A DNA stretch of 64,000 bases, taken from the NCBI GenBank assembly GCA_038850515.1, contig JAWCLV010000002.1:1966-65965 (forward strand), in the 5' to 3' direction. Shown here one piece after another: positions 16,910 through 53,326 of this stretch (positions are counted from its first letter, which is position 1; each line of letters begins with the position of its first letter). The position numbers and the translations under genes are program-made. Source of the stretch: Candidatus Bathyarchaeia archaeon. Its GTDB lineage: Archaea > Thermoproteota > CALKCG01 > B24 > JAGTQN01. The notes below the pieces were generated by a model, which made no database searches, was not told the origin of the DNA, and worked only from the letters and a program-made list of their open reading frames with translations.

Positions 16910-17043
16910 AGAAAAGGATGAAAAACGAAATGTAGAAAACGATTTGATTTTTCTTAGAGCGAAGGGTTCTTTGGTCATCAACGTTCGGCGACGTTCTTGG
17001 GCTCTGTAGGTTTGACTAAACTAAGATCACGGAAAAGAAGAAC

Positions 17044-17058
17044 TTTAAATTTAAATTT
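17044..17058 (+). promoter_or_regulatory. TATA-box-like element upstream of the tRNA at 17081
   Basis: TTTAAATTTAAATTT ends 23 nt before the first tRNA nucleotide, which is the usual archaeal TATA spacing. Confidence 0.45.
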
Positions 17059-17080: not shown

Positions 17081-17251
17081 GGGGCCGTGGTCTAGCCTCA
17101 GCCAAGGATGGCTGCTAGACAGGTATGACGACAAGGACCCCTCGTCAAGGGCTCCAGAAGGCGCGATTTACCGACCCTAGGTTAGGGATGAAGAGGTTCT
17201 GGAGCGCGTGAGGACACCCGTATGTCGCCGGATCGAAGCCGGCCGGCCCCA
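17081..17251 (+). tRNA. intron-containing tRNA gene (171 nt), tentatively tRNA-Trp(CCA); exon structure only partly resolved
   Basis: Acceptor GGGGCCG (17081-87) pairs with CGGCCCC (17244-50), followed by A73. T-arm is GCCGG-ATCGAAG-CCGGC. D-stem is GTCT/AGAC. A CTCCAGA loop lies at 17152-58. About 95 nt is surplus over a mature tRNA. Confidence 0.65.
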
Positions 17252-17412
17252 CTTCTTATTCATTGATCTTTTCTTAGGCAACCTAACGTTCGCACAGTCT
17301 GATTATTTATTCCCAATTTATAATAAGACCTACGAAAAAATTTGCCTGAAGATTCTTATTTTTCATGAAACCTTAACTTGAAATAAAGTCCCCTTAATGA
17401 CTTGGAGGGAAT

Positions 17413-23017: not shown

Positions 23018-23041
23018 GCCTCTACTACTTCCTTTAATGGT

Positions 23042-23186
23042 CCCGCGGTAGCTCAGCCTGGAAGAGCTTCCGATCCGGCATAAACCGGAGAAGATGCTGT
23101 AGACTTCGCCAATTCTTGGCGGAGCCATTCAGCCTTCTAGGCTAACAGAAACCGGAGCGTCCCCGGTTCAAATCCGGGCCGCGGGA
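23042..23186 (+). tRNA. tRNA-Tyr(GTA) with two BHB introns (23073-23095 at position 30/31; 23103-23150 at canonical position 37/38)
   Basis: The C1:G72 acceptor (CCCGCGG/CCGCGGG, A73) is the archaeal Tyr identity pair. D-arm is GCTC-AGCCTGGAA-GAGC and T-arm is CCCGG-TTCAAAT-CCGGG. The spliced anticodon arm is TCCGG-CTGTAGA-CCGGA. Exons total 74 nt, and 74+23+48 = 145 nt, the genomic length. Confidence 0.85.
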
Positions 23187-23262
23187 TACCTTTTCTAATA
23201 TTCTGATGAAGAAAATAAAATTCTTCTTATAAGACAATTCGATTAGTTATCCTTGATAGATT

Positions 23263-25421: not shown

Positions 25422-25820
25422 TCAACTTTGAGGCCCCCTCGCATGACTACGCTTCTTTGAGCCCTCTGGAATCTTTCTTTGTTTTTCTTCGGCACTCCTA
25501 GCCTTTATGATAAAGGCTCCAGAATCGATCGCGAGCCACGATATCCTATCGCCAGGTTTTAGACCCATAGCCCTAGCGATTTCTTCCGGAACCGTAGTAG
25601 CAAAGGGGCTGTTTCCAATAGGCCGGGTAAGGGTGTAAAAGACTGGAAAAGTTCCCGAACTCCCCTTGGACTCTGTAACCTTCTCCATAACCTGGATGGC
25701 TAAACTTCTCTTCAAAAGATCAAGGTTGACAGAGAAAACATAACCCCTCTCCTCAAGAAGGGCCCTTGCTAGAAGGACAACTCGATTGAAGATGGAGCTT
25801 AATTCTCCAATTTCACTCAT
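25422..25820 (-). CDS. hypothetical protein with C-terminal AbrB/SpoVT-like segment
   Basis: 132 aa. TVPEEIARAMGLKPGDRISWLAIDSGAFIIKA resembles a swapped-hairpin DNA-binding fold. Confidence 0.4.
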   Translation of the reverse strand: MSEIGELSSIFNRVVLLARALLEERGYVFSVNLDLLKRSLAIQVMEKVTESKGSSGTFPVFYTLTRPIGNSPFATTVPEEIARAMGLKPGDRISWLAIDSGAFIIKARSAEEKQRKIPEGSKKRSHARGPQS

Positions 25821-53177: not shown

Positions 53178-53207
53178 CAAACCATATATTCATTGCTTTG
53201 GGCCCGT

Positions 53208-53326
53208 GGGCCCGTATGGCTAATGCCAGGGAAGCTCAGCAAGGTAGAGCGGCAGGCTCTTAACCTGTTGGACGTCTCCTTGGAACGTCCGGGGAATGGT
53301 CAGGGGTTCGATTCCCCTCGGGCCCG
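53208..53326 (+). tRNA. tRNA-Lys(CTT) with two non-canonical BHB introns (53217-53233 at position 9/10; 53269-53296 at the anticodon-stem/variable-loop junction)
   Basis: Acceptor GGGCCCG/CGGGCCC plus G73. D-arm GCTC-AGCAAGGTA-GAGC. Anticodon arm GCAGG-CTCTTAA-CCTGT. T-arm AGGGG-TTCGATT-CCCCT. Exons sum to 74 nt, and 74+17+28 = 119 nt, the genomic length. Confidence 0.85.

What the first reader, a model, noticed from the sequence alone, without database searches (positions are those of the whole stretch)
17081..17251. 171-nt tRNA gene with ~95 nt of intervening sequence, including a 9-nt element complementary to a Trp-type anticodon loop
The ends are an unambiguous tRNA: a 7-bp acceptor stem, a D-stem, and a T-arm with ATCGAAG.

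Inside the D-loop there is a strong BHB:
- helices GTCT/AGAC and AGCC/GGCT
- bulges TCA and GCT
- predicted intron 17100-17115

Excising it would leave a 7-nt D-loop (AGCCTCT) with no G18/G19, which is abnormal.

The only canonical-looking anticodon loop is CTCCAGA at 17152-58 (Trp CCA, the same loop as Haloferax tRNA-Trp). The best stem I can form around it is AAGGG/CCCGT, and that has an A-G mismatch. I could not derive a clean exon model.

GCTCCAGAA (17151-59) is perfectly complementary to TTCTGGAGC (17197-17205). That element is flanked by GGGATGA (17185-91; 6/7 match to box C, RUGAUGA) and GTGA (17208-11; near box D, CUGA).

This recalls the box C/D guide in euryarchaeal pre-tRNA-Trp introns, which directs 2'-O-methylation of C34. 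Here, though, the spacing is 16 nt rather than 12. The N+5 rule points to U33, not C34.
Basis: partly seen in the sequence, partly recalled or inferred. Interest (0 to 1): 0.6.

Follow-up and report, generated by a model that had tools for sequence, protein, structure and literature searches.

The report
Three-intron tryptophan tRNA gene, self-guide intron
This is the single tryptophan tRNA gene of a hot-spring Bathyarchaeia archaeon, split by three introns, the largest carrying the known type of guide RNA aimed at the tRNA's own anticodon; it is a typical, if intricate, member of a known kind.

Summary
The locus 17081-17251 (+) is a real tRNA-Trp(CCA) gene with three bulge-helix-bulge (BHB) introns.
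- Intron 1: 17098-17120, in the D-loop after C17.
- Intron 2: 17133-17148, at 28/29.
- Intron 3: 17158-17215, at the canonical 37/38 site.

Removing them gives a clean 74-nt cloverleaf that ARAGORN calls Trp(CCA). Orthologs in 17 related genomes support it by covariation.

Its D-loop intron (17100-17115) is a decoy BHB. It also missed the 28/29 intron, which explains its A-G mismatch.

Intron 3 holds:
- an internal k-turn: D' CCGA, a stem, and C' AUGAAGA;
- exactly 12 nt of spacer containing UUCUGGAGC, which pairs with G31-G37 plus the first two intron bases.

The same layout occurs in 190 of 401 sampled genomes of the phylum, with covariation. This matches the known pre-tRNA-Trp intron guide (Haloferax, Pyrococcus, Sulfolobus).

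Lineage-specific points:
- the second guide (to C39) has decayed;
- no clear D box follows the C34 guide;
- the T-loop reads AUCGAAG (A54, G60), unlike all 24 other tRNAs found here.

No RNA data could be obtained.

The parts
17043..17058 (+). Promoter-like element (A-rich stretch, then CTTTAAATTTAAATTT), 23-38 nt upstream of the tRNA 5' end
   Evidence: Many other tRNA genes of this genome show the same AAA..CTT(T)AA motif roughly 25-35 nt upstream. This is an inference; there are no transcription data.
17081..17097 (+). Exon 1: acceptor 5' strand, U8 G9, D-stem 5' strand GUCU, D-loop AGCC (positions 1-17)
   Evidence: Spliced alignment to orthologs. ARAGORN cloverleaf of the spliced product.
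17098..17120 (+). Intron 1, 23 nt, in the D-loop between C17 and A17a. BHB: central helix CUAG 17092-95 with CUAG 17115-18, bulges CCU and ACA, and an inner helix that I place at CAGCC 17099-103 with GGCUG 17110-14
   Evidence: Central helix 4/4 and inner helix 6 bp by the script's count, G-U allowed. Absent from family f3 orthologs, which read GUCUAGCCAGGUAGGAC uninterrupted. Present at the same site, with a compensatory CCAG/CUGG helix, in family f4.
17121..17132 (+). Exon 2: A17a G18 G19 U20 A21, D-stem 3' strand UGAC, G26, A27 C28
17133..17148 (+). Intron 2, 16 nt, between positions 28 and 29 in the anticodon stem. BHB: central helix GACG 17127-30 with CGUC 17143-46, bulges ACA and AAG, inner helix AGG/CCU
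   Evidence: Central helix 4/4 and inner helix 3 bp. An intron at this site was found in every ortholog of the order and in several other families. Their inner hairpins have unrelated sequences of 3-11 bp.
17149..17157 (+). Exon 3: G29 G30 G31 and anticodon-loop bases C32 U33 C34 C35 A36 G37 (anticodon CCA)
   Evidence: Invariant in all orthologs.
17158..17215 (+). Intron 3, 58 nt, at the canonical 37/38 site. BHB: central helix CUCC 17152-55 with GAGG 17210-13 (3 of 4 pairs), bulges AGA and ACA, outer helix = anticodon stem
   Evidence: central helix 3/4. The outer helix is 3 bp in the unspliced RNA. By my reading it becomes 5 bp once intron 2 is removed. The same site is used in all orthologs.
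17163..17170 (+). Remnant of the first guide (GCGAUUUA). In relatives it reads (A)CGGGUUUG and pairs with AAACCCG, so that C39 lies five bases from the D' box
   Evidence: By my reading only 4 of the 7 positions that pair in relatives can pair here, so the guide is probably inactive in this genus.
17171..17174 (+). D' box CCGA (family consensus CNGA; CUGA in 21 of 45 lineages)
17175..17187 (+). Short stem-loop (CCCUA GGU UAGGG) closing the internal k-turn between the D' and C' boxes
   Evidence: The sister genome has CCAGA/UUUGG at the same place. Across 45 lineages the mean stem is 3.4 bp, against 1.5 bp in shuffles.
17188..17194 (+). C' box AUGAAGA (6 of 7 matches to RUGAUGA). AUGA is invariant in the relatives
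17195..17206 (+). 12-nt spacer GGUUCUGGAGCG. It holds the guide UUCUGGAGC (17197-205), which pairs with G31-G37 plus intron bases 1-2. G17202 pairs with C34
   Evidence: Of 133 distinct related sequences, 116 form at least 8 contiguous pairs, with covariation at the first intron bases (AA/UU, AG/CU, CC/GG). The spacing is fixed in 37 of 45 lineages.
17207..17211 (+). Place where a D box is expected. CGUG (17207-10) is in the register that selects C34 but lacks GA. GUGA (17208-11) is one base off and would select U33
   Evidence: By my count, 14 of 45 related lineages have NNGA exactly in the C34 register; this genus and family f2 do not.
17216..17251 (+). Exon 4: A38, anticodon stem 3' strand CCCGU, variable loop AUGUC, T-arm GCCGG-AUCGAAG-CCGGC (A54, G60), acceptor 3' strand, discriminator A73. 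CCA is not encoded
   Evidence: The T-loop is unique among the tRNAs of the genome and is shared only with family f2 orthologs.

Best explanation
**What it is**
This is the only tRNA-Trp(CCA) gene in the assembly. It is transcribed as a precursor of about 171 nt that carries three introns. All three are of the kind cut by the archaeal splicing endonuclease.

**Proposed order of events** (inferred from sequence; each kind of step is established in other archaea)
1. The precursor first adopts its most stable fold. In that fold the intron segment UUCUGGAGC pairs with the anticodon loop and the first two intron bases.
2. L7Ae binds the internal k-turn (D' CCGA, stem, C' AUGAAGA), and Nop5 and fibrillarin assemble on it.
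3. The complex 2'-O-methylates the base selected by the 12-nt spacer, most likely C34. This could act on the same molecule or, as shown for Haloferax, on another one.
4. The RNA refolds so that three BHB motifs form: in the D-loop after C17, at 28/29 and at 37/38.
5. The endonuclease cuts each bulge after its second base. Two endonuclease paralogs are encoded, as expected for the heteromeric type that accepts relaxed motifs.
6. RtcB joins the four exons, and probably circularises the introns.
7. CCA is added after transcription, giving a 74-nt tRNA plus CCA.

**Lineage-specific state**
In this genus the second guide, which targets C39 in relatives, has decayed. The intron therefore probably serves position 34 only.
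For: **Gene and exon model**
- The spliced product is called tRNA-Trp(CCA) with a full cloverleaf. Leaving in intron 1 gives no tRNA call, leaving in intron 2 gives a false Gly(ACC) call, and leaving in intron 3 gives Trp(CCA) only with a distorted arm and a wrong 39-nt intron.
- On 10 orthologs, 96% of cells are paired and 5 pairs change on both sides.
- BHB motifs are conserved at the same three sites, while the inner hairpins vary in sequence.
- The sister genome is 96% identical. All 6 differences fall in introns.
- No other Trp gene is present in the assembly.
- The promoter motif matches that of other tRNA genes of the genome.

**Guide**
- There is a 9-bp perfect duplex.
- The architecture occurs in 190 of 401 genomes and 93 of 161 genera of the phylum, against rare hits with the reversed control pattern.
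- The duplex covaries where it extends into the intron.
- D' and C' boxes are conserved, a stem lies between them, and the spacer length is fixed.

**Machinery in the genome**
- Two tRNA_int_endo paralogs, fibrillarin next to Nop5, RtcB, and L7Ae-family genes.

**Literature**
- Archaeal tRNA-Trp introns nest a box C/D RNA that guides Cm34 and Um39 (PMC4090602, PMC7994747).
- The S. solfataricus Trp intron is a stable circle complementary to positions 34 and 39, without consensus boxes (PMC3326292).
- Cm34 is present in S. acidocaldarius tRNA-Trp (PMC7668247).
Against: - There is no RNA evidence.
- No recognisable terminal box C was found.
- The four bases in the D-box register for C34 are CGUG, without GA. 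The nearest GUGA would select U33.
- The central helix of intron 3 has one C-A mismatch.
- The all-BHB conformer is about 18 kcal/mol less stable in silico than the guide-duplex fold, so a refolding step has to be assumed.
- A54 and G60 in the T-loop are unusual for an elongator tRNA.
- Rfam's tRNA model and default ARAGORN do not detect the unspliced gene.
Confidence: 0.8

Rival explanations
1. The gene and its three introns are real, but the antisense element does not guide methylation here. It would act only structurally: masking the anticodon loop, ordering the splicing steps, or stabilising the excised circular intron. The box-like motifs would be decaying relics.
For: - No terminal C box and no GA-containing D box in the C34 register.
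- The C39 guide has already decayed in this genus.
- The guide duplex and the BHB of intron 3 exclude each other.
- In Haloferax the intron and its methylations are dispensable (cited in PMC4090602).
Against: - The D' and C' boxes, the stem between them and the exact 12-nt spacing are all conserved in this genus and across the phylum. A purely structural helix would not require this.
- Fibrillarin, Nop5 and L7Ae-family genes are present.
- Cm34 is found in tRNA-Trp of a crenarchaeon whose intron also lacks consensus boxes (PMC7668247, PMC3326292).
Confidence: 0.15
2. The guide is active, but it selects U33 through the GUGA box at 17208-11, rather than C34.
For: GUGA is the only NUGA-like box after the guide. 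It lies 13 nt from the C' box, and the fifth base upstream of it pairs with U33.
Against: - In the 14 related lineages (my count) with a clear NNGA box, it sits in the C34 register.
- The 12-nt ruler from the C' box is the conserved quantity.
- Known targets in tRNA-Trp are C34 and position 39 (PMC7994747).
- GAGG 17210-13, which overlaps GUGA, is also needed for the BHB central helix.
Confidence: 0.08
3. The locus is a disrupted or pseudogenised tRNA remnant, and the working tRNA-Trp lies in an unassembled part of the genome.
For: - The genome is about 81% complete.
- The T-loop has A54 and G60.
- Standard tRNA finders miss the gene.
Against: - Exons are identical in the sister genome while introns differ.
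- A single orthologous copy was found in 14 of the 17 genomes of the order (E <= 1e-5), and the four from families f1 and f2 carry the same A54/G60.
- All helices are intact and covary.
- BHBs are intact.
- A tRNA-type promoter motif is present.
Confidence: 0.03

Closest known systems
Box C/D guide RNA nested in the pre-tRNA-Trp intron of Euryarchaeota (Haloferax volcanii; Pyrococcus sR50; Clouet d'Orval 2001, Singh 2004, as summarised in PMC7994747 and PMC4090602)
   Same: - Intron at 37/38 of tRNA-Trp(CCA).
- Two antisense elements in the same 5'-to-3' order, first to position 39 and then to the anticodon loop. The order in Haloferax is from my memory of the Singh 2004 abstract.
- Internal D'/C' pair.
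- 12-nt spacer.
- The guide duplex and the BHB exclude each other.
   Different: - The intron is shorter here: 58 nt, against 105 nt in Haloferax.
- No recognisable terminal C box.
- The D box is degenerate.
- The position-39 guide has decayed in this genus.
- The host gene carries two further introns.
Sulfolobus solfataricus tRNA-Trp 65-nt intron, a stable circular RNA (Danan 2012, PMC3326292)
   Same: - Same phylum in the GTDB sense.
- Similar intron length.
- Complementarity to positions 34 and 39.
- Consensus C and D boxes reported as not found.
   Different: - Here, and in most of the 45 lineages compared, the internal D' (CNGA) and C' (AUGANGA) boxes are clearly recognisable.
- Only the position-34 complementarity is intact here.
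- Circularity has not been tested here.
Multi-intron tRNA genes with non-canonical BHB introns in Thermoproteales, Thaumarchaeota and relatives (Marck and Grosjean 2003; Sugahara 2008; reviewed in PMC4090602)
   Same: - Up to three introns per gene.
- Relaxed BHB forms that rely on the inner helix.
- Genomes with two endonuclease paralogs.
- Intron presence is patchy between relatives.
   Different: None in kind. This is a further example, in Bathyarchaeia, at sites 17/17a, 28/29 and 37/38.
A54-A58 T-loop of eukaryotic initiator tRNA-Met (PMC7912444)
   Same: A at position 54, where U is otherwise described as universally conserved.
   Different: This is an archaeal elongator tRNA. Position 60 is G rather than A. 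Nothing is known about function.

Membership tests
tRNA-Trp(CCA), archaeal elongator tRNA | Cloverleaf with a 7-bp acceptor stem, D-arm, 5-bp anticodon stem, 7-nt anticodon loop with U33 and anticodon CCA, and a 5-bp T-stem | tested here: met
   ARAGORN on the spliced 74-mer. On 10 orthologs, 96% of cells are paired and 5 pairs covary.
tRNA-Trp(CCA), archaeal elongator tRNA | Conserved tertiary bases: G18 G19 in the D-loop, and U54 U55 C56 ... A58 with a pyrimidine at 60 in the T-loop | tested here: inconclusive
   G18, G19, U55, C56 and A58 are present. Position 54 is A and position 60 is G, unlike all 24 other tRNAs found by Rfam in the genome. U54 is described as universal except in eukaryotic initiators (PMC7912444).
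tRNA-Trp(CCA), archaeal elongator tRNA | Expressed and aminoacylated with tryptophan | not testable with these tools
Only indirect support exists: single copy, conserved exons and a promoter motif.
Archaeal BHB (splicing-endonuclease) introns | A 4-bp central helix flanked by two 3-nt bulges on opposite strands, with at least one flanking helix | tested here: met
   - Intron 1: central helix 4/4, inner helix 6 bp.
- Intron 2: central helix 4/4, inner helix 3 bp.
- Intron 3: central helix 3/4, outer helix 3 bp (5 bp after intron 2 is removed, by my reading).

Archaeal BHB (splicing-endonuclease) introns | Removal restores a functional RNA, and the site is conserved or cleanly absent in orthologs | tested here: met
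   Family f3 lacks intron 1 precisely. Several lineages of family f15 lack introns 1 and 2 precisely.
Archaeal BHB (splicing-endonuclease) introns | Cleavage by EndA and ligation by RtcB observed | not testable with these tools
   The genes are present: two tRNA_int_endo paralogs and RtcB.
Box C/D guide RNA (intron-encoded, pre-tRNA-Trp type) | Terminal box C (RUGAUGA) and box D (CUGA) forming a k-turn | tested here: not met
   No C box was found within the expected distance upstream of the D' box. After the second guide the sequence is CGUG/GUGA. The same lack was reported for S. solfataricus (PMC3326292).
Box C/D guide RNA (intron-encoded, pre-tRNA-Trp type) | Internal D' and C' boxes forming a k-turn or k-loop | tested here: met
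   CCGA, a 5-bp stem, and AUGAAGA. These are conserved across 45 lineages, and the stem varies in sequence.
Box C/D guide RNA (intron-encoded, pre-tRNA-Trp type) | Antisense element of about 9-12 nt in a 12-nt spacer, with the target base paired to the fifth base upstream of the D box | tested here: inconclusive
   The 9-bp duplex and the 12-nt spacer are met. The register points to C34 only if the D box starts at 17207, where no GA is present.
Box C/D guide RNA (intron-encoded, pre-tRNA-Trp type) | Second guide to position 39 | tested here: not met
   GCGAUUUA here, against the CGGGUUUG consensus. By my reading only 4 of 7 positions can pair. It is intact in families f2 and f4 and in most other lineages.
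Box C/D guide RNA (intron-encoded, pre-tRNA-Trp type) | L7Ae, Nop5 and fibrillarin encoded, and methylation observed | tested here: inconclusive
   The genes are present. Methylation cannot be tested with these tools.

The most novel reading that the evidence does not exclude
In this lineage, and perhaps in much of the phylum, the tRNA-Trp intron may work as a one-k-turn guide. A single internal D'/C' k-turn would serve the downstream antisense element. The methylation site would be set by the fixed 12-nt distance from the C' box, or by the adjoining BHB, rather than by a D box. This would be a stripped-down way of choosing the site that standard box C/D rules do not cover. The same gene also carries an A54/G60 T-loop, otherwise described only for eukaryotic initiator tRNA.
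Probability: 0.2. Interest if true: 0.5.

Novelty: new member of a known kind. Interest (0 to 1): 0.3.

Why it matters
**Annotation**
The gene is invisible to default tRNA finders. Without it the genome would appear to lack tRNA-Trp. The exon model given here can be transferred to the whole order.

**Biology**
- It adds Bathyarchaeia to the lineages in which the tRNA-Trp intron keeps an antisense element to its own anticodon.
- It supports the suggestion, made from Sulfolobus, that this device is conserved across archaeal phyla.

**Small lineage-specific points that could be followed up**
- Loss of the position-39 guide.
- Absence of a recognisable D box despite a strictly kept 12-nt spacer.
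- An A54/G60 T-loop in an elongator tRNA.

None of this changes current understanding.

Tried and rejected
- **Default tRNA finders.** ARAGORN and Rfam, at the gathering threshold and at E <= 10, find nothing at the locus. ARAGORN with one intron allowed also fails. It mis-calls other multi-intron tRNAs of the genome as well.
- **Unconstrained BHB scan.** A permissive scan of the locus gave 159 candidates. It cannot pick the introns on its own, so ortholog comparison was needed.
Taking intron 17100-17115 together with AAGGG/CCCGU gives a 3-bp D-stem, no G18/G19 and an A.G mismatch. I rejected it.
- **Terminal C box.** I read the sequences 5' of the first guide in 20 orthologs by eye. Only a loose GC-N(1-3)-GA motif recurs, and it has no k-turn register.
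- **Second pattern hit in the genome.** C31:11721-11777 lies antisense inside a 308-aa open frame and was not found in the sister genome. I treat it as chance.
- **Trans-acting replacement guides.** I looked for stand-alone guides to C39 or C34. The hits are at chance level. The best one (C11:~895, with an upstream GUGAUGA) lies inside a 367-aa open frame.
- **Primary papers.** Clouet d'Orval 2001 and Bortolin 2003 are not held in the library. The Singh 2004 statements rest on my memory of its abstract.

Full report
**1. Observation**

- A 7-bp acceptor stem, GGGGCCG with CGGCCCC, followed by A73.
- A T-arm, GCCGG-AUCGAAG-CCGGC.
- A loop CUCCAGA at 17152-58.
- A perfect 9-nt complementarity between GCUCCAGAA (17151-59) and UUCUGGAGC (17197-205). 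This helix dominates the minimum-free-energy fold (-76 kcal/mol, z = -2.85).

Default ARAGORN and Rfam do not call a tRNA here.

**2. Context**

- The window lies on contig C2 of a 1.54-Mb, 71-contig, roughly 81%-complete genome with 47% G+C.
- A neighbouring protein is 88% identical to one from a 'Candidatus Bathyarchaeota' hot-spring MAG. Earlier notes of this scan also call the genome a hot-spring Bathyarchaeia with many split tRNA genes.
- Rfam finds 24 tRNAs in the genome, none of them Trp. ARAGORN with introns allowed also finds no Trp.

**3. Exon model from orthologs**

A DNA search of 60 relatives found the locus in many of them.
- The sister genome is 95-96% identical over the full length.
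- Genomes of the same order are about 71-84% identical.
- Several other families of the phylum are about 65-68% identical.

The order holds 17 sampled genomes. Fourteen have one hit each at E <= 1e-5.

The orthologs settle the exons.
- Family f3 orthologs read GUCUAGCCAGGUAGGAC without interruption.
- Our gene reads GUCUAGCC[23 nt]AGGUAUGAC.
- So the D-loop intron is 17098-17120, and the true 3' strand of the D-stem is UGAC (17126-29), not AGAC.
- All orthologs of the order also share an insert between GAC and GGGCUCCAGA. This is a second intron, 17133-17148, between positions 28 and 29.
- The third intron, 17158-17215, sits at the canonical 37/38 site.

Removing the three leaves a 74-nt sequence:
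GGGGCCG UG GUCU AGCCAGGUA UGAC G ACGGG CUCCAGA CCCGU AUGUC GCCGG AUCGAAG CCGGC CGGCCCC A.

ARAGORN calls this tRNA-Trp(CCA) with a full cloverleaf.
- Leaving in intron 1 gives no tRNA call.
- Leaving in intron 2 gives a false Gly(ACC) call.
- Leaving in intron 3 gives Trp(CCA), but with a distorted anticodon arm and a wrong 39-nt intron.

On an alignment of 10 orthologous mature sequences:
- 96% of cells are paired;
- five pairs change on both sides (6:67, 13:22, 27:43 and two in the T-stem);
- no shuffle and no slid structure reaches this.

**4. BHB motifs**

I used the standard geometry: a 4-bp central helix, 3-nt bulges on opposite strands, and cleavage after the second bulge base.

| Intron | Central helix | Bulges | Other helix |
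|---|---|---|---|
| 1 | CUAG/CUAG, 4 of 4 | CCU, ACA | inner, 6 bp |
| 2 | GACG/CGUC, 4 of 4 | ACA, AAG | inner, 3 bp |
| 3 | CUCC/GAGG, 3 of 4 | AGA, ACA | outer = anticodon stem |

- For intron 3 the script counts a 3-bp outer helix in the unspliced RNA. By my reading it becomes 5 bp once intron 2 is out.
- The same motifs recur at the same sites in orthologs. One compensatory variant is CCAG/CUGG in family f4. The inner hairpins have unrelated sequences.
When I read the ortholog L004 by eye, its pairing breaks down. It is a decoy created by the AGCC repeat.
- All three BHBs can coexist in one fold at -57.5 kcal/mol. That is about 18 kcal/mol above the guide-duplex fold. The guide helix and the intron-3 BHB exclude each other, as I recall being described for euryarchaeal pre-tRNA-Trp.

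**5. The large intron**

Aligning 20 orthologs and then 45 distinct lineages shows one architecture:

anticodon loop - variable stretch - (A)CGGGUUUG - CNGA - short stem-loop - AUGA(A/C/U)GA - 11 or 12 nt ending in ..UCUGGAGC - one base - four variable bases - ..GNNG AA|A CCCG

How I read each part:
- **CNGA** (CUGA in 21 of 45) is a D' box.
- **AUGANGA** is a C' box.
- **The bases between them** pair: mean 3.4 bp, against 1.5 bp when shuffled.
- **CGGGUUU** pairs with AAACCCG, so that C39 lies opposite the fifth base upstream of D'.
- **Distance from C' to the end of GGAGC** is 11 nt in 37 of 45 lineages. This gives a 12-nt spacer in which the base opposite C34 is fifth from the expected D box.

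A strict pattern search used GGCUCCAG, 22-52 nt, RAUGA, 8-16 nt, GGAGC.
- It hit 190 of 401 sampled genomes of the phylum, and 93 of 161 genera.
- The reversed control pattern hit only about a dozen genomes.

Among the 133 distinct matched sequences I examined, 116 form at least 8 contiguous pairs starting at G31. The pairs that reach into the intron covary: AA with UU, AG with CU, CC with GG. The antisense element is therefore selected to pair with the unspliced precursor.

In our gene the parts are:
- remnant guide GCGAUUUA (17163-70);
- D' CCGA (17171-74);
- stem CCCUA/UAGGG (17175-87). The sister genome has CCAGA/UUUGG;
- C' AUGAAGA (17188-94);
- spacer GGUUCUGGAGCG (17195-206).

The invariant AUGA register gives 12 nt.

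Two things are not canonical.
- The first guide can pair with the C39 region at only 4 of 7 positions, by my reading. It has probably lost its function in this genus. It is intact in families f2 and f4.
- The four bases in the D-box register are CGUG. By my count, 14 of the 45 lineages have NNGA there. Ours and family f2 do not. GUGA one base further would select U33, and it overlaps the BHB strand GAGG.
- I also found no terminal C box.

**6. Machinery**

The genome encodes:
- two tRNA_int_endo paralogs, as expected for the heteromeric endonuclease that cuts relaxed BHBs at non-canonical sites;
- fibrillarin adjacent to Nop5;
- RtcB;
- L7Ae-family proteins.

Many other tRNA genes of the genome share an A-rich plus CTT(T)AA motif roughly 25-35 nt upstream. 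Our gene has it at 17043-58.

**7. Evidence that the gene is functional**

- It is the only locus in the assembly with the Trp exons.
- All six differences from the sister genome lie in introns. By chance this has a probability of (97/171)^6, about 0.03.
- The helices covary.

**8. The T-loop**

AUCGAAG puts A at position 54 and G at position 60.
- All 24 other tRNAs found by Rfam in the genome have U at both positions.
- Among the 45 lineages compared, only families f1 and f2 (four genomes) have this loop.
- U54 is described as universally conserved except in eukaryotic initiator tRNA, where A54 pairs with A58. Position 60 is normally a pyrimidine (PMC7912444).

I regard this as a real, lineage-specific oddity of unknown meaning.

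**9. Comparison with what is known**

- Reviews state that archaeal tRNA-Trp introns (median 65 nt) nest a box C/D RNA that directs Cm34 and Um39 (PMC4090602, PMC7994747, PMC3218864).
- In S. solfataricus the 65-nt Trp intron is an abundant circle. It is complementary to positions 34 and 39, but consensus boxes were not found (PMC3326292).
- S. acidocaldarius tRNA-Trp carries Cm34 (PMC7668247).
- The order of the two guides here matches what I remember of Haloferax from the Singh 2004 abstract. There C'/D' guides U39 and C/D guides C34. That paper is not held in the library.
In that reading the internal pair is the main C/D motif and the degenerate pair sits at the intron ends. My data show only that the internal pair is the conserved one. 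They do not decide between the two labels.
- Multi-intron tRNAs with relaxed BHBs are well known in this phylum.

**10. Verdict**

This is a correct and useful annotation of a hidden tRNA-Trp gene. It is a further member of two known kinds: multi-intron archaeal tRNAs and the self-targeting tRNA-Trp intron guide. The lineage-specific details are minor.

Confidence:
- exon model: about 0.95;
- the guide directs methylation of C34: about 0.6.

Noticed in passing
window 23041-23187 (+): A second long split tRNA gene. ARAGORN calls it Arg(CCG) with a 73-nt intron, which is probably wrong. Rfam misses it.
   Followed up: no
window 53200-53326 (+): tRNA-Lys(CUU). Rfam matches only positions 7-64 and shows a 29-nt insert after the anticodon stem, which suggests a non-canonical intron.
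   Followed up: no
L021 (G049:C5, about 25460-25700) and L056-L058: In another family of the phylum the tRNA-Trp gene has up to five inserts. In L021 the same 20-nt string GTAGACAAAACATTGGCGGA occurs twice, once after position 9/10 and once in the variable region. This looks like one intron copied to a second site of the same gene. Intron transposition of this kind has been proposed for Thermoproteales.
   Followed up: partly
L016, L018, L060-L083 (3' halves): Many relatives carry an extra intron of about 29-45 nt in the variable region of tRNA-Trp, after CCCGUAGG. Several also lack the D-loop and 28/29 introns. Intron content of this one gene is therefore very patchy across the phylum.
   Followed up: partly
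G000:C31:11721-11777 (-), locus L085 922-978: A second match in the same genome to the pattern 'anticodon loop ... RAUGA ... GGAGC'. It includes 15 nt identical to 17144-59. It lies antisense inside a 308-aa open frame and was not found in the sister genome, so it is probably chance.
   Followed up: yes
G000:C6:42127-42363 and G000:C31:16344-16601; G000:C20:10275-11689: Two splicing-endonuclease paralogs (open frames of 216 and 184 aa), and an adjacent fibrillarin-Nop5 gene pair.
   Followed up: partly
window 17252-17280: CCA is not encoded after A73 (the sequence reads CTTC...). Families f3 and f4 encode ...CCCCACCA.
   Followed up: no
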